From a virus: a stretch of 64,000 nt of DNA. This document shows, one piece after another, positions 12,948 to 43,666 of this stretch. Each line of letters begins with the position of its first letter. Position 1 is the first letter of the stretch. The translations under genes and the position numbers were made by a program. A model generated the notes under the pieces. It did not search any database. It saw only the letters and a list, made by a program, of their open reading frames with translations, and had not been told where the DNA came from. The stretch is from the IMG/VR virus record IMGVR_UViG_3300013738_000004, positions 1,931-65,930 of that record; one strand, given 5' to 3'.

Positions 12948-13475
12948 CTACGCTTCCAGCGCGCCCTTTTGCATCCCTCGCAACATGGATAGCTTCGCAA
13001 TCGCATCCATGTTTTCCTTGCGCTGGGCGTCCGTCAGTTGATCTTGACGAACGTTTTTGAGCGTCAGCGCGGCGCGCTTGTATGCCTTCGCTGCTTCGCG
13101 CTCAAACTTCTCCTGGGCTAGCTCAGTTTGCTCGCCAGGGGGCACAACACGGTAGCCTTCGCCGAATACAACGCTCAGAAAAATCTGGTGATTTTCCAGA
13201 AGTTCAGCGCGGAAAGCCTCCATATTGCGAAGCCATTCAAACTGACGCTCCTGAAAATCTTCCGCTGTCATCGGGCCAGCGATTGGTTCCATGCCGAAGT
13301 GCATTTCGAGCCACGACTTGCTAACCACATCACCTTCGCCGAAACCCTCGTCAAAGAAGTCCTTTACGGCCTGCCTCCATTCGGGGAACAGGCTGACATT
13401 TTCTTCTTCATCAAGGCCGCATTTACGCAGGCCTTCGCGGGCGCTTTGAATTGCCTCCAATACGTCTCTCCTCAT
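12948..13475 (-). CDS. Protein coupled to the RAMP gene (putative accessory/effector)
   Basis: ATG 13475 lies 2 nt after the RAMP stop; GGAG RBS; helical C-terminus. Confidence 0.75.
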   Translation of the reverse strand: MRRDVLEAIQSAREGLRKCGLDEEENVSLFPEWRQAVKDFFDEGFGEGDVVSKSWLEMHFGMEPIAGPMTAEDFQERQFEWLRNMEAFRAELLENHQIFLSVVFGEGYRVVPPGEQTELAQEKFEREAAKAYKRAALTLKNVRQDQLTDAQRKENMDAIAKLSMLRGMQKGALEA

Positions 13476-13477
13476 AA

Positions 13478-14047
13478 TCACTCCACCGTGACCGAGAAGC
13501 GGCCAAAGCGCGGACGGTACTCGCACACGCCGATGAGTGCGCCAGCGTCAGCCAGTGTCTTTTTGACCTCGGACATGTTCAATACGTCCGGGTTGAATGC
13601 AACCTCGAGCTCGCACGCCCATTCCGAGAACACGGGGCGGTAGCGCATCACCTTGGCGGTGCCAACCTTCACGCCTCGGCAGTCCACAAACTGGGTATCT
13701 TCCCAAAGCTTTTCGGGCGTCTTCGGACCTGCATGGATCAGCTTTGCGCGATCCGTCAGGACTAGCGCGCCTCGCGTCCATGCGGTGCCGAGCTTTTGGA
13801 GCTTCGCTCCAGCCTTGAACGTGGCATCGAAGTTCGCTCCGGGCACGTAGATGCCAGTCGATTCGCTGAAATAGATGCCGCTCAGGAATTCCGATTTGGC
13901 GATGGCAAGATGGTCGTCGTCCGTTTTCTTGCGCTTGCCTGTCAATTCCTTATGTGCTTTAGTTTCTGGCAGAAGCGGATTCGCCAGGCGATCCGAGTGC
14001 ATCATGAGGGGCGACGTGCCAACGATTTTCAATTTCAAAACTTCCAT
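13478..14047 (-). CDS. Stand-alone RAMP/Cas7-like (RRM-fold) RNA-binding protein; putative Vipr-type guide-binding protein
   Basis: N-terminal LKIVGTSPLMMH, central GIYVPGANF (cf. IPGSS of Csm3/Cas7 RAMPs) and C-terminal G-rich loop GALIGVCEYRPRFGRFSV; no other cas genes nearby. Confidence 0.75.
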   Translation of the reverse strand: MEVLKLKIVGTSPLMMHSDRLANPLLPETKAHKELTGKRKKTDDDHLAIAKSEFLSGIYFSESTGIYVPGANFDATFKAGAKLQKLGTAWTRGALVLTDRAKLIHAGPKTPEKLWEDTQFVDCRGVKVGTAKVMRYRPVFSEWACELEVAFNPDVLNMSEVKKTLADAGALIGVCEYRPRFGRFSVTVE

Positions 14048-14060
14048 GATGGTTTCCTTG

Positions 14061-14623
14061 TAGAGAACATCCCATACCCGGCCTTACCACGACATACCGC
14101 TCCCAAGCGAAACCTATCGGAGCCAACCGTTGCCGTAGTCTGCCCAGCCAATGATGCAAGCGCATCGGGAAAGCCGAAGCCTTCCCACTGCGTTCGCAGT
14201 CCGAAACAGAGCCTGCCTCGACACACCGCGCCTTGATGCAACGTGCCCTGCCACTGGGCGCTATTCGCACCGCACTGGTTTGCTCCAGTGCGCTGAAAAC
14301 AGCGGTTGCCTCGCCTCGCCTCACCTAACCGTGCCTAACCTGGGCTCGCCTAACCACCCCCAGATCACCACCGATGCTATTCGCACCGATTAGCCTTTCG
14401 GCTAACCGCTGAAAACAGCCCATGCCTTGACTTGCCTTGCCACGCCTGGCCTGACCCCGACTTGCCGCGCTATGCCTTGCCGCGTCTGGGCTTGTCACAC
14501 CAAACCGTGCCACTGGCGCTATTCGCACCGGCAAACCCAAAGGCTTGCCACTGAGAACAGTCCATACCCCATCAAAGCTCACCTCAGCTCGACATACGGA
14601 GTCATGCCACTCCATGCCTCACC
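14061..14623 (-). ncRNA. Five GGY-NN pentamer arrays separated by conserved hairpins (putative guide-RNA locus)
   Basis: Plus-strand NN-RCC 5-nt periodicity at 14069-14149, 14208-14252, 14306-14365, 14417-14511, 14559-14623; GCTATTCGCACCG exact at 14260, 14376 and 14518, each followed by a hairpin and CTGA(A/G)AACAG. Confidence 0.8.
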
Positions 14624-15514: not shown

Positions 15515-15765
15515 TTACGCCGCCTGCCGCATCGCAACGCGGACCAGGCTGTTCTGAAGCTTCTCCTGCTGCTTCTTGCCGAAGTGCGGGGTGTACTTGC
15601 TGCGCGAGGCGCGGCGAACGTCGACATTCGGGGTCGAAGGTTGCGGCACGTAAAGCGTCTGACCGTTCGGCGCGAGAACCTTCTTTTGCACCGGGATTTC
15701 TAGGAAGTGAAGGTTGCGCTTTGCGAGGATTTCAGCGCGGTGCGTTGGTGATGTTTGCGGCTCAT
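15515..15765 (-). pseudogene. Frameshifted small gene (1-nt deletion or sequencing error)
   Basis: The coupled ATG (MSRKHHQRT) stops after 21 codons, while another frame continues RAEILAKRNLHFLEIPV...MRQAA* with no start codon; total length 251 nt. Confidence 0.5.
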
Positions 15766-16721
15766 GCTGCGTCCTTTTCTTCAGATTTCGTTTCGACCCA
15801 AAAGCCGGTCATCAGATTGATGGGCTTCGCTTTGGCAATAACGCGCCCGTAAACCGACCACTTCGGCAGGCGCAGTCGCAGGGCGGCAAAGATTCCATAG
15901 TCCTCACCGGCTTCGATGCCCAAACCGGCTTCGATGCCCTCACCGGCTTCGATGCCCGAACCGGCTTTGATGCCCCAACCGGCTTCGATGCCCGAACCGG
16001 CTTTGATGCCCTCACCGGCTTCGATGCCCTCACCGGCTTTGATGCCCGAACCGGCTTTGATGCCCCAACCGGCTTCGATGCCCGAACCGGCTTTGATGCC
16101 CTCACCGGCTTCGATGCCCGAACCGGCTTTGATGCCCTCACCGGCTTCGATGCCCAAACCGGCTTTGATGCCCCAACCGGCTTCGATGCCCCAACCGGCT
16201 TTGATGCCCGAACCGGCTTCGATGCCCTCACCGGCTTCGATGCCCGAACCGGCTTCGATGCCCAAACCGGCTTCGATGCCCTCACCGGCTTCGATGCCCA
16301 AACCGGCTTTGATGCCCCAACCGGCTTCGATGCCCCAACCGGCTTTGATGCCCGAACCGGCTTCGATGCCCTCACCGGCTTCGATGCCCAAACCGGCTTT
16401 GATGCCCTCACCGGCTTCGATGCCCGAACCGGCTTTGATGCCCGAACCGGCACGCAACGAAAATTCGATCTTGATTGAGCCTGTCACGCGAATCGATCCG
16501 GCGAACACGAAGCGCTTTTTCTCAAGCGTCCCGACTTCCAGCACATCATCAGTTTTACCGAAAGCGTTCAGCAGCCAGCACGCGTCGTCGAAACGATCGT
16601 CGTCGCAGAGCTTGTCGAGAATTTCCTGATACTCGCCGCCTTCCGGGAAATTGCGGAGGTACCACTCGTAGCCATCCGAACAGGGATGCTTTTCCTTCAG
16701 CAGTTCTTTGGTGATCTTCAC
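15762..16721 (-). CDS. Hexapeptide-repeat (AGxGI[K/E])30 beta-solenoid-like protein
   Basis: GTG start with GGAGAAG RBS; N-terminal domain KITKELLKEKHPCSDGYEWY. Confidence 0.85.
   Translation of the reverse strand: MKITKELLKEKHPCSDGYEWYLRNFPEGGEYQEILDKLCDDDRFDDACWLLNAFGKTDDVLEVGTLEKKRFVFAGSIRVTGSIKIEFSLRAGSGIKAGSGIEAGEGIKAGLGIEAGEGIEAGSGIKAGWGIEAGWGIKAGLGIEAGEGIEAGLGIEAGSGIEAGEGIEAGSGIKAGWGIEAGWGIKAGLGIEAGEGIKAGSGIEAGEGIKAGSGIEAGWGIKAGSGIKAGEGIEAGEGIKAGSGIEAGWGIKAGSGIEAGEGIEAGLGIEAGEDYGIFAALRLRLPKWSVYGRVIAKAKPINLMTGFWVETKSEEKDAA
15912..16451 (-). repeat. 30 x 18-bp coding tandem repeat
   Basis: Unit GCC GGT (TCG/TTG/TGG/GAG) GGC ATC (A/G)AA. Confidence 0.95.
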
Positions 16722-17323
16722 GGCTTCTCCACGTAAATAGGACAACGAAACTTGATGGGCAGGATTGGGGGTTGGGGGATGCTCAACACTCACGGAGGCG
16801 CGCTGCGCTATCTCAGGGAGAGGGATGAAGGATCGCTGTTTCGGTGGATCTAGCACCGGCAGACGCCTGATCCATGCAACCGTAGCTGCATGAGGTACGC
16901 TGCCCAGCGGTGGTCCGCGTCTCTTTGAGGGGGAACGCAGTGCGCTTTCGTGAATGCTGCTACTCCGCAGGACGCTGGCGACACCCTTGTTATCGGCTCC
17001 AGCTGCCCTGCGGACTTCCGCGACGCTTCACAGATCCTGTCTGCTACGCAATCGCGGGCGCTGTCCTTACTACGCGAGGACTTGCTTTATTCCGCGCCCT
17101 TTCGGGAATGGTTCGATGTTCTGTGTCTCGTGTGGACCATGACCACATACGCCCGGTTGCTCGCTTTCGCGTCCCGGGTCAAAGACTTCAGTTGTCCAGC
17201 CTGTCGGCTAGGGGCCCGAGGGCGCCTAAAGATCATTCCGCTATCCCGGCTCTGCCGGAGCGGTTACTGATACTGCTGTGCTATCCGCACTAGCTTGGCG
17301 ATGGGCCAAGCTGCTGAGGACAG

Positions 17324-17788
17324 TTACTTCTTTGCGAGACCAGTTCCGCTGCAAACGCCACACGTCATATCCCACGCCTCTTCGGGGTCGCGAAACAGAA
17401 CGGTTCCTTTCCCGTCGCATTCCTCGCAGGCATCATGTGAGCGATCGTGCTCGATGGCCTTGTTCGGATCAGCGGTGCGCCAGTCTGGCCAGACGCGGCC
17501 TTCGTTCTTCGCCTGTTTGGCAACGAGCGCTTCAATGATCTGCTGAGGCGAACCACCTGCGCGCCATGCACCATCAAGCGCGAGAATCACGACGTCGATC
17601 CATTCGGTGAGATCGGTCGGATCAGCCTCGATCTCGTTCAGCTCTTTGCGGATATGGTCGATCACGCCCTTAGCGCGCGATCCGGGGCCAAACGTCTGCT
17701 CGGACCACTCACGCTGTCGAAGGAGGTGCCCATACAGACTAAATGCCGACGCCTCCTGTTCTTTCTTGTACTGAGGAACATCCATCAC
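17324..17788 (-). CDS. dATP/dGTP pyrophosphohydrolase-like (DUF550, MazG-like) protein
   Basis: QREWSEQTFGP..R..GVIDHIRKELNEI...EWIDVVILALDGAWRAG...KNEGRVWPDWR; C-terminal Zn finger. Confidence 0.8.
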   Translation of the reverse strand: MMDVPQYKKEQEASAFSLYGHLLRQREWSEQTFGPGSRAKGVIDHIRKELNEIEADPTDLTEWIDVVILALDGAWRAGGSPQQIIEALVAKQAKNEGRVWPDWRTADPNKAIEHDRSHDACEECDGKGTVLFRDPEEAWDMTCGVCSGTGLAKK

Positions 17789-32932: not shown

Positions 32933-33008
32933 TGCCGGGTAGCTCAATTGGTAGAGCAGCGGGTTTTGATCCCGTTGGTTGCGCGTTCGAGTCGCGCTCC
33001 GGTTGCCA
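32933..33008 (+). tRNA. tRNA-Gln (anticodon TTG) with atypical acceptor stem
   Basis: 76 nt; D arm AGCTC..GAGC, anticodon stem GCGGG/CCCGT with loop TTTTGAT, T loop TTCGAGT, encoded CCA. Confidence 0.85.
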
Positions 33009-43576: not shown

Positions 43577-43666
43577 CTGGCTCCCGATAGGTCGACGGAC
43601 TGAAAGCGCGTTTCCCTGGACGCGCCCTCGGGAGTTTCAATTCCAGGGATTTTCAGGGAAATCCCC

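What the first reader, a model, noticed from the sequence alone, without database searches (positions are those of the whole stretch)
14260..14560. Conserved hairpin spacers define the guide units (processing or boundary signals)
GCTATTCGCACCG occurs exactly three times (14260, 14376, 14518). Each copy is followed by a different but fully paired inner stem (CACTGG/CCAGTG, TTAGCC/GGCTAA, GGCAA/TTGCC) and then CTGA(A/G)AACAG. On the transcript, GCUGUU...AAUAGC can close an outer stem around a conserved internal loop. The inner sequence varies while pairing is kept, which is covariation within one genome and strong evidence for a functional RNA structure. A GA(A/G)ACA-type motif also borders the remaining two blocks (14203, 14063).
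Basis: seen in the sequence. Interest (0 to 1): 0.85.

Follow-up and report, generated by a model that had tools for sequence, protein, structure and literature searches.

The report
Guide-RNA tail hairpins of phage VIPR
The three conserved hairpins are the structured 3' "tails" that end each guide RNA of a phage-borne VIPR system, an RNA-guided gene-silencing system described in 2026 preprints, so the feature is real and functional but belongs to a known kind.

Summary
GCTATTCGCACCG occurs exactly three times (0.01 expected), each beside a differently sequenced but fully paired stem.

The RNA is read from the minus strand. The region is a 580-nt non-coding array directly upstream of a 189-aa gene that matches the solved SUSP1 Vipr protein (PDB 36pp, E 2.7e-45) and of a vap1 homologue. 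This is a type II VIPR locus: tracts of GGYNN pentamers (vrRNA guides), each followed by a roughly 45-nt structured tail. The three hairpins are those tails.

Covariation across 20 close and 102 distinct wider tails favours three tandem hairpins:
- P1: R-CUG, 4-nt loop, CAG-Y
- P2: a variable 8-9 bp stem
- P3: RRUGC-GAAUA-GCRYC

The P1 and P3 loops are complementary.

Two things seem not to be in the preprint text I read. Guide-less "orphan" tails sit just after ordinary genes, including window 17274-17326 and phages without vipr. The same tail also serves Vipr proteins only 27-35% identical.

Processing and end positions are untested, because no RNA data exist. Verdict: a new member of a known kind.

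The parts
14515..14561 (-). P1 14550-14561 (ACUG-UUCU-CAGU), P2 14530-14549, P3 14515-14529 (GGUGC-GAAUA-GCGCC).
   Evidence: Covariance model 70.5 bits, E 1.2e-18; alignment A1 and pair counts.
14373..14419 (-). Tail of vrRNA B (copy at 14376). P1 14408-14419, P2 14388-14407 (GAAA loop), P3 14373-14387 (GGUGC-GAAUA-GCAUC).
   Evidence: Covariance model 67.1 bits; the P2 is identical to the third tail of L004.
14257..14303 (-). Tail of vrRNA C (copy at 14260). P1 14292-14303, P2 14272-14291 (8 bp, 6-nt loop), P3 14257-14271.
   Evidence: Covariance model 58.9 bits.
14564..14623 (-). Guide tract of vrRNA A: 12 pentamers in GGYNN register, several of them degenerate. It starts about 7 nt after the stop of the upstream 47-aa ORF.
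   Evidence: Pentamer parsing.
14422..14511 (-). Guide tract of vrRNA B: 18 pentamers in GGYNN register, with internal degenerate units.
14306..14360 (-). Guide tract of vrRNA C: 11 pentamers, the cleanest GGYNN run in the window.
14203..14252 (-). Guide tract of vrRNA D: 10 pentamers.
14150..14202 (-). Variant tail of vrRNA D with the same three-hairpin plan: P1 ACUGCG-AA-CGCAGU, a variable P2, and P3 GAUGC-GCUU-GCAUC as aligned by the model. The same type is present in L004 and L197, each with a different P2.
   Evidence: Covariance model 35.0 bits, E 6.5e-8.
14070..14149 (-). Unit E: a degenerate pentamer tract with a one-base register slip and no recognisable tail. It runs into the vipr ribosome-binding site and is probably a remnant or 5' UTR.
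   Evidence: no model hit.
13478..14047 (-). vipr gene (189 aa), a RAMP-family guide-RNA-binding protein.
   Evidence: PDB 36pp_D 'SUSP1 Vipr protein', E 2.7e-45 over residues 1-188; phrog_4652; 72.5% identical to a Pseudomonas phage Medea1 protein.
12948..13475 (-). vap1 homologue (175 aa), the VIPR accessory gene.
   Evidence: 50% identity (E 4e-51) to the gene after vipr in Medea1 and 30% (E 2e-13) to the one in Felixounavirus HY02 of the SUSP1 clade; phrog_5926.
17274..17326 (-). Orphan tail. It has the same P1-P2-P3 module (P1 loop UCCU, P3 loop GGAUA), directly abuts the stop codon of the Q-like / dATP-dGTP pyrophosphohydrolase gene, and has no GGYNN tract before it.
   Evidence: Covariance model 35.3 bits, E 5.2e-8; sequence; upstream ORF.

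Best explanation
The three hairpins are the structured 3' tails of three vrRNAs in a type II VIPR (Viral Interference Programmable Repeat) locus of a provirus. The minus strand carries an array of five units followed by vipr and then vap1. Four units have a tail, and the array is probably co-transcribed with the genes.

Each unit is a run of GGYNN pentamers. By homology with the solved SUSP1 and P. fulva complexes, one Vipr protomer holds each GGY and presents each NN for gapped pairing with target DNA.

Each tail starts one base after the last GG. It folds into three tandem hairpins with no linkers:
- P1: R-CUG, UUYU loop, CAG-Y (sequence conserved)
- P2: 8-9 bp of free sequence with a 4-6 nt loop
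- P3: RRUGC, GAAUA loop, GCRYC

Three bases of the P1 loop (UUY) can pair with three bases of the P3 loop (GAA). This would give a compact pseudoknot-like cap, comparable to the 3' pseudoknot that caps the SUSP1 filament.

Inferred function: the tail fixes the 3' end and the register of the Vipr filament, marks the RNA as a Vipr substrate, and, being a stable structure, sets the 3' boundary of each mature vrRNA within the array transcript.

Shown here: the homology, the architecture, the covariation and the distribution. Inferred: capping, loading, and any processing.
For: - Vipr identity: E 2.7e-45 to PDB 36pp_D across the full length.
- vap1 homologue next to it.
- GGYNN tracts lie on the gene's strand beside vipr homologues in most of 80 related loci and in none of about 100 unrelated control loci.
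- Published description of the vrRNA as repeats plus a ~40-nt structured tail that caps the 3' end and confers competence for Vipr complex formation.
- Strand: intrinsic terminators end homologous arrays on the gene-sense strand. The antisense strand folds worse, with z -1.3 to -4.0 against -5.1 to -6.1.
- Structure, close family: RNAalifold returns three hairpins. P2 has 7 of 8 pairs changed on both sides. P1 pair 3-14 is GC 12 / AU 5. P3 pair 36-48 is GC 14 / AU 3 / GU 3.
- Structure, wider family: 96% of cells paired, 12 pairs with changes on both sides, and 0 of 500 shuffles reach the observed covariation score. P3 switches such as GGUGC/GCACC, GAAGC/GCUUC and GAUGC/GCAUC occur.
- Loop-loop complementarity covaries (UUY:GAA, AUC:GAU, UCC:GGA): 24 of 27 positions pair against 69% in shuffles, and 2 of 5000 shuffles do as well.
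- No sigma-70-like promoter or terminator lies inside the array, which fits one precursor transcript.
Against: - No RNA data exist for this phage, so expression, the ends and the fold in vivo are unverified.
- The only tail with a solved structure (SUSP1) is an H-type pseudoknot with a different sequence and topology. Its capping role is carried over by analogy.
- Single-sequence minimum-free-energy folding gives the extended hairpin rather than three hairpins, and the two folds differ by only about 1 kcal/mol on average.
- The wider alignment A2 was fitted to the three-hairpin model, which biases its pair counts.
- The tail is shared by Vipr proteins only 27-35% identical and occurs without any guide or vipr. 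This is not what a strictly Vipr-specific handle predicts.
Confidence: 0.8

Rival explanations
1. The hairpins are double-strand-specific RNase (RNase III-type) processing sites. The conserved flanks pair to give one irregular ~20-bp hairpin. A host enzyme cuts this hairpin to release the units, as in phage T7 early transcripts. This could coexist with the tail role, as an alternative conformer of the precursor.
For: The extended fold is the single-sequence minimum-free-energy structure for all three copies (-27 to -29 kcal/mol, z -5 to -6). On average it is 1 kcal/mol better than three hairpins. Its length is about two helical turns. The P1-loop to P3-loop covariation is equally compatible with this helix. 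There are no internal promoters or terminators, so some processing is needed.
Against: No outer pair changes on both sides, and pair 3-46 is broken in 8 of 20 sequences. Covariation of columns 35-37 with 47-49 (P3) and of 3 with 14 (P1) is unexplained by this fold. In sister tail subfamilies the extended helix cannot form, while P1 and P3 persist (for example GAAGC/GCUUC places A opposite A at pair 12-37). No cleavage data exist.
Confidence: 0.15
2. The three-hairpin element is a portable RNA 3'-end module read by a host factor or a general phage factor, for stability, processing or termination control. VIPR arrays would have co-opted it, so it is not primarily a Vipr-specific handle.
For: Guide-less copies abut or closely follow the ends of unrelated genes: window 17274-17326, L103/L184, L149, L231 and L225/L243. 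Five such records, three of them estimated complete, lack GGYNN tracts and both Vipr lineages. Arrays next to Vipr proteins only 27-35% identical use the same tail, while Viprs 68-76% identical use other tail subfamilies.
Against: Most copies sit exactly one base after a GGYNN tract, in fixed register. The published SUSP1 tail sits at the filament's 3' end as its cap and is taken there to confer Vipr competence. Orphans could instead be remnants of deleted guides or decoys for Vipr. The vipr searches could miss very divergent types.
Confidence: 0.25
3. The element acts on DNA, as a cruciform or recombination site (like integron attC sites or other hairpin recombination sites) that allows guide cassettes to be exchanged.
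For: The conserved flanks around a variable paired centre superficially resemble attC sites. Tail types are shared between otherwise divergent loci, which recombination at the tails could produce.
Against: No integron-type integrase gene was seen next to the array among the neighbouring ORFs searched. G-U pairs are frequent in the stems and work only in RNA of the gene-sense strand. The opposite strand folds poorly. The terminator-ended arrays point to transcription.
Confidence: 0.03
4. The array is a CRISPR-like array whose repeats are the hairpins, processed by a Cas6-type RAMP.
For: The adjacent gene is a RAMP-family protein, and the layout of repeat, variable segment, repeat looks similar.
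Against: The 'repeats' differ in their stems within one array. The 'spacers' are 5-nt periodic GGYNN tracts of 45-90 nt, not unique protospacer copies. None of the neighbouring ORFs searched matched a Cas family. The preprint's tree places Vipr outside Cas5, Cas6 and Cas7.
Confidence: 0.02

Closest known systems
SUSP1-clade vrRNA 3' tail (H-type pseudoknot) of type II VIPR (bioRxiv 10.64898/2026.04.26.720920 and 10.64898/2026.04.26.720927)
   Same: It has the same position (immediately after the last GGYNN repeat), a similar length (~40-45 nt) and the same locus architecture (array, vipr, vap1). It also begins with a short hairpin right after the last GG, and that hairpin's loop pairs with downstream sequence (HY02 tails; loop-loop pairing here).
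   Different: There is no sequence similarity. Here an extra variable hairpin (P2) and a stem (P3) are inserted, and the loop pairing is only 3 bp between two hairpin loops rather than a ~8-bp pseudoknot helix. The preprint calls tails invariable, whereas here P2 differs between tails of one array. The Vipr proteins are only 42.6% identical.
P. fulva-clade VIPR (Pseudomonas prophages; nearest cultured relative found here is phage Medea1, 72.5% Vipr identity)
   Same: It has the same vrRNA array, vipr, vap1 order as described for the cloned P. fulva locus. The Medea1 tail shows the same P1-P2-P3 plan (GCUG-AAAA-CAGC, a long P2, then P3).
   Different: It belongs to a different tail subfamily: the P1 loop is AAAA or ACAA, P2 is longer (28-30 nt), and P3 usually has a GNRA tetraloop with no P1-P3 loop complementarity. 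I found no structural description of this clade's tail in the preprint text.
CRISPR repeat-derived crRNA handle bound by Cas6 or Cas5
   Same: It is a conserved structured element that caps a variable guide, marks unit boundaries in a multi-guide transcript, and is associated with a RAMP protein.
   Different: The guide is non-contiguous (GGYNN). The tail stems vary within an array. No adaptation genes or other cas genes were seen. No evidence exists for RAMP-catalysed cleavage.
Phage T7 RNase III processing hairpins (R1.1 and others)
   Same: They are conserved irregular hairpins of about 20 bp with internal mismatches that separate units of a polycistronic phage transcript. The extended conformer modelled here looks like this.
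   Different: Covariation supports three separate hairpins rather than one helix. Cleavage is untested.
Hammerhead-ribozyme-interspersed VIPR arrays (types I and V)
   Same: They are structured RNA elements placed between adjacent vrRNAs that define unit boundaries.
   Different: No hammerhead or other ribozyme family matches here, at either the Rfam gathering or the E-value threshold. The element here has no ribozyme core.

Membership tests
VIPR system, type II (vipr + vap1 + vrRNA array) | Vipr protein (minimal RAMP) encoded at the locus | tested here: met
   Window 13478-14047(-) against PDB 36pp_D 'SUSP1 Vipr protein': E 2.7e-45, residues 1-188 aligned to 1-189. The N-terminal strand and the C-terminal G-loop region (RPRFGRFSV) are conserved.
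VIPR system, type II (vipr + vap1 + vrRNA array) | vap1 accessory gene adjacent to vipr | tested here: met
   Window 12948-13475(-) is homologous to the gene following vipr in Medea1 (50%, E 4e-51) and in SUSP1-clade phage HY02 (30%, E 2e-13).
VIPR system, type II (vipr + vap1 + vrRNA array) | vrRNA tracts of about 9-16 GGYNN/YNNGG repeats in flanking intergenic DNA, on the gene strand | tested here: met
   There are five tracts of 10-18 pentamers in register, with the internal degeneracy the preprint also notes. The tracts co-occur with vipr homologues across 80 loci.
VIPR system, type II (vipr + vap1 + vrRNA array) | Conserved structured 3' tail of about 40 nt directly after the last repeat | tested here: met
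   There are three canonical tails and one variant tail. The covariance model gives 59-71 bits and 35 bits respectively. Covariation supports the structure.
VIPR system, type II (vipr + vap1 + vrRNA array) | vrRNAs are expressed as ~100-nt RNAs and co-purify with Vipr | not testable with these tools
   No RNA-seq run holds this sequence; only soil DNA metagenomes hold parts of it.
VIPR system, type II (vipr + vap1 + vrRNA array) | NN dinucleotides match natural DNA targets by the 1-nt-skip rule | tested here: inconclusive
   Unit C has no exact 10-repeat match in viral contigs. Local scans of 1.7 Mb are at the shuffled-guide background, except unit D at 18/20 on the tail junction of L197. At database scale 18/20 is at chance level.
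SUSP1-type pseudoknot tail | H-type pseudoknot in which the loop of the first hairpin pairs with ~8 nt downstream; SUSP1 consensus sequence | tested here: not met
   There is no sequence similarity to HY02 tails. The topology here is three hairpins with at most a 3-bp loop-loop contact.
CRISPR array | Near-identical direct repeats separating unique spacers; cas1/cas2 or effector cas genes nearby | tested here: not met
   The stems differ among the three copies. The segments between them are pentamer-periodic. None of the neighbouring ORFs searched matched a Cas family.
Rfam-described RNA families (including hammerhead and other ribozymes) | Match to a curated covariance model | tested here: not met
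   There is no match at gathering threshold in the window region, and only noise at E up to 10.
RNase III substrate hairpin | A continuous ~20-bp helix maintained by selection; cleavage by RNase III | tested here: inconclusive
   The helix is thermodynamically possible, but its outer pairs show no compensatory change and one pair is broken in 8 of 20 sequences. Cleavage is not testable here.

The most novel reading that the evidence does not exclude
The tail is a portable three-hairpin RNA module that is not tied to one Vipr lineage. Arrays next to Vipr proteins only 27-35% identical use it, and guide-less orphan copies directly follow ordinary genes, including in apparently complete phages with no vipr and no GGYNN tract. 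Two readings would go beyond the current VIPR picture. Either a host or general phage factor reads it, for RNA 3'-end formation or stability, and VIPR co-opted it as its handle. Or tail-only RNAs are a new class of Vipr decoy. In addition, the freely varying P2 stem could act as an identity tag that lets rival arrays target each other's tail DNA while sparing their own.
Probability: 0.25. Interest if true: 0.6.

Novelty: new member of a known kind. Interest (0 to 1): 0.4.

Why it matters
VIPR is a newly described, phage-borne RNA-guided DNA-silencing system proposed to predate CRISPR. Only the SUSP1 tail has a described structure.

This locus and its relatives give a second, well-supported tail architecture: three tandem hairpins with a free central stem. 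That tells an experimenter which parts of a vrRNA handle are constrained (P1, P3 and the register after the last GG) and which can be changed (P2). This is useful for annotating arrays, for building covariance models to find vrRNAs, and for engineering guides.

The orphan tails, and the sharing of one tail type between very different Vipr proteins, bear on an open question. It is not known how type II vrRNAs are matured, or what besides Vipr recognises the tail.

Tried and rejected
- **Rfam:** scans at gathering and E-value thresholds found nothing in the region. ARAGORN found no tRNA-like element there.
- **BLAST against phage records:** blastn and megablast of the region and of 10 kb around it found no match.
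- **Coding potential:** the 96-aa ORF 14325-14615(-) has no family hit. The conserved flanks fall in different reading frames in different units, and the 5-nt period is incompatible with codons, so coding was rejected.
- **First motif scan:** the scan of viral contigs was swamped by an unrelated gut-phage coding sequence. A tighter pattern solved this.
- **Genome-contig scan:** 18 of 19 hits were chance matches without a stem. Only a Burkholderiales MAG (L215) was real.
- **TRAP-like, CsrA-like or Hfq-like protein sponge, and G-quadruplex or R-loop origin:** I considered these for the pentamer tracts and dropped them once the Vipr homology appeared.
- **K-turn, C/D-box, attC, retron and tRNA-like readings of the hairpin:** considered from the sequence and rejected, because the defining motifs or partner genes are absent.
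- **Target prediction by the 1-nt-skip rule:** no exact target for unit C. Units A, B, C and E are at shuffled-guide background locally. Unit D matches a rival array's tail junction at 18/20, but a database scan shows 18/20 matches arise by chance in coding sequences, so I make no target claim.
- **Wider search for new P1-loop and P3-loop combinations:** it added only UUCG and UCCG P1 loops, both with the GAAUA P3 loop. It therefore did not strengthen the loop-loop covariation, and UCCG gives one uncompensated mismatch.

Full report
**Observation**

The 13-mer GCTATTCGCACCG occurs exactly three times in the window, at 14260, 14376 and 14518 on the + strand. Dinucleotide-preserving shuffles expect 0.01 copies, and none of 100 shuffles reaches three. 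Each copy adjoins a different, fully paired stem and then CTGA(A/G)AACAG. The copies lie in a 580-nt gap without credible genes, between minus-strand ORFs.

**Strand and context**

The neighbouring genes are on the minus strand. On that strand each unit reads as CUGUUYUCAG, then a 23-nt stem-loop region, then UGCGAAUAGC. The stretches between units are G-rich with a strict 5-nt period, GGY followed by two free bases.

In a related contig (L005) the same unit lies downstream of the homologous genes and is followed by a canonical intrinsic terminator on the gene-sense strand. Many homologous arrays end in a P1 hairpin plus terminator. The sense strand folds far better than the antisense strand, with z -5.1 to -6.1 against -1.3 to -4.0.

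**Identity of the system**

The 189-aa gene just downstream (13478-14047, phrog_4652, no Pfam or NCBIfam hit) matches PDB 36pp chain D, 'SUSP1 Vipr protein', at E 2.7e-45 over its whole length. The next gene (12948-13475) is homologous to the gene that follows vipr in Pseudomonas phage Medea1 (50% identity) and in the SUSP1-clade Felixounavirus HY02 (30%, E 2e-13). That makes it vap1.

Three 2026 preprints describe VIPR systems. [quoted passage not shown] The NN bases read DNA with a one-base skip. Sharing the consensus tail is taken to make an RNA competent for Vipr complex formation.

In 80 viral contigs that encode a Vipr homologue, pentamer tracts lie on the gene's strand in most. They sit either just upstream of the gene or 0.5-1.3 kb downstream. 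None occurs in about 100 unrelated control loci. The window is thus a type II VIPR locus with the array upstream of vipr and vap1, the order described for the cloned P. fulva locus.

**Anatomy in the window (minus strand, 5' to 3')**

| Unit | Guide tract | Tail |
|---|---|---|
| A | 14623-14564 | 14561-14515 |
| B | 14511-14422 | 14419-14373 |
| C | 14360-14306 | 14303-14257 |
| D | 14252-14203 | variant, 14202-14150 |
| E | degenerate, 14149-14070 | none |

Unit E runs into the vipr ribosome-binding site. One lies inside unit D's degenerate pentamers, and the other is a decayed remnant. No sigma-70-type promoter or intrinsic terminator lies inside the array. This fits one precursor transcript but is weak evidence.

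**Structure of the tail**

I collected 20 distinct tails of this sequence family from the window and from 12 other contigs. One of these is a Burkholderiales MAG. Two models were compared on the gap-free alignment A1.

- **Three tandem hairpins.** This model gives 97.4% of cells paired and a covariation score of 0.51, against 0.20 in shuffles (0 of 500 shuffles as high).
  - P2 has 7 of 8 pairs changed on both sides.
  - P1 pair 3-14 alternates between G-C (12 sequences) and A-U (5).
  - P3 pairs 36-48 and 37-47 vary compatibly.
It shares the inner stem, but its outer pairs never change on both sides, and pair 3-46 is broken in 8 of 20 sequences.

RNAalifold, run without constraints, returns the three-hairpin fold. 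Single-sequence folding returns the extended hairpin. The two folds are nearly isoenergetic, with means of -24.5 and -25.7 kcal/mol.

A covariance model built on the three-hairpin fold found 120 tails (102 distinct) across the Vipr loci, and no hits in loci that matched the sequence pattern only by chance. In this wider set:

- P1 is almost always GCUG-N4-CAGC, with loops of free sequence and occasional extra base pairs.
- P3 shows full switches such as GGUGC/GCACC, GAAGC/GCUUC and GAUGC/GCAUC.
- P3 usually carries a GNRA tetraloop.
- In most subfamilies the extended helix cannot form.

This alignment is fitted to the model, so I give more weight to A1 and to the qualitative switches.

In the subfamily present here, with its GNNUA pentaloop in P3, three P1-loop bases are complementary to three P3-loop bases, and they covary: UUY with GAA, AUC with GAU, UCC with GGA. 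Over the distinct combinations, 24 of 27 positions pair, against 69% in shuffles (2 of 5000 shuffles as high). A later scan added one uncompensated exception, UCCG with GAAUA. It may be a kissing or pseudoknot contact, comparable to the SUSP1 pseudoknot in which the first hairpin's loop pairs downstream. It may instead reflect an alternative conformer.

**Likely mechanism**

Shown: homology to Vipr and vap1, GGYNN tracts in register, a tail that begins one base after the last GG, and a fold maintained by selection.

Inferred from the SUSP1 and P. fulva work: one Vipr protomer binds each GGY. The tail caps the 3' end, fixes the register and marks the RNA for Vipr. As a stable structure it also defines the 3' boundary of each mature vrRNA.

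How the precursor is cut is unknown. The preprint text I read does not describe type II biogenesis, and no RNA-seq run holds this sequence. A role for the extended conformer as an RNase III-type substrate remains possible, at about 15%.

**Points beyond the preprint text I read**

1. P2 differs between tails of one array, although tails are called invariable for SUSP1. P2 type follows position in the array across phages. The UGGCAAGCC type comes first and the CGCACUGG type is the last canonical tail (window, L104, L167, L200).
2. Arrays attached to Vipr proteins only 27-35% identical to this one use the same tail subfamily (L200, L155, L104, L215). Viprs that are 68-76% identical use other subfamilies.
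3. Guide-less orphan tails exist.
   - One sits at window 17274-17326, directly after the stop codon of the Q-like / pyrophosphohydrolase gene (35.3 bits).
   - Others directly follow the stop of an upstream open reading frame (L103/L184, L149) or lie where no GGYNN tract precedes them (L231, L225/L243).
   - These five records, three of them estimated complete, have no GGYNN tract and no homologue of either Vipr lineage (positive control).
   - This suggests a portable module read by something besides Vipr, or tail-only decoys, or remnants of deleted guides. I cannot tell which.

**Targets**

No convincing natural target was found. Unit D matches the tail junction of a rival array (L197) at 18 of 20 guide bases, against 16 of 20 on its own tail. 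This echoes the published vrRNA-targeting vrRNAs. However, a database scan shows that 18/20 matches arise by chance in coding sequences, so this is only a lead.

**Verdict**

It is wrong in the proposed fold and untested on processing. The feature is a new member of a known kind, the vrRNA tail of a type II VIPR system, with a tail architecture that the preprint text does not describe.

Noticed in passing
window 17274-17326 (-) and downstream to about 17100: An orphan three-hairpin tail directly abuts the stop codon of the Q-like gene. After it comes a non-coding stretch of more than 200 nt that shares conserved blocks with the region after the orphan tail in L149, a phage without vipr. It may be a larger conserved RNA or a late-leader region.
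   Followed up: partly
L103/L184, L149, L231, L225/L243: These loci carry guide-less tail modules (45-63 bits). In L103/L184 and L149 the module directly follows the stop of an unrelated upstream open reading frame. None of the viral records has a GGYNN tract or a homologue of either Vipr lineage, and three of the records are estimated 100% complete.
   Followed up: partly
L200:42-1090, L104, L155, L215/L224: Arrays with tails nearly identical to the window's precede a divergent Vipr-like gene. It is 27-35% identical and has an open frame of about 254 aa in L215. The tail type therefore does not track the Vipr lineage.
   Followed up: partly
window 14203-14252 (-) versus L197:5536-5564: [quoted passage not shown] This resembles the published vrRNA-targeting vrRNAs, but 18/20 is at chance level at database scale.
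   Followed up: yes
window 14260-14560 versus L004, L104, L167, L200: The P2 stem type follows position in the array across phages (UGGCAAGCC first, CGCACUGG as the last canonical tail), while the guide tracts between them differ. The arrays are syntenic, with fast-evolving guides.
   Followed up: partly
window 17324-17788 (-): This gene combines a dATP/dGTP pyrophosphohydrolase domain (PF04447, E 3.6e-27) with a C-terminal zinc-ribbon region that weakly resembles Q-like antiterminators.
   Followed up: no
window 15762-16856 (-): This 364-aa ORF has only weak, repeat-type hits (serine-rich protein, YdhT). I did not examine it.
   Followed up: no
window 43580-43648 (+) and 32933-33008 (+): Rfam finds an int-alpA RNA (41.7 bits, above the gathering score). 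Both Rfam and ARAGORN find a tRNA-Gln (UUG) inside the provirus.
   Followed up: no
L223 (Pseudomonas phage LESphi2) 2020-2500; L222 (phage HY02) 2100-2500 and 3520-3700: Cultured phages annotated only with 'hypothetical protein' carry complete VIPR loci with vrRNA arrays. In LESphi2 the array lies upstream of vipr, in the locus that also carries the cI and cro genes.
   Followed up: no
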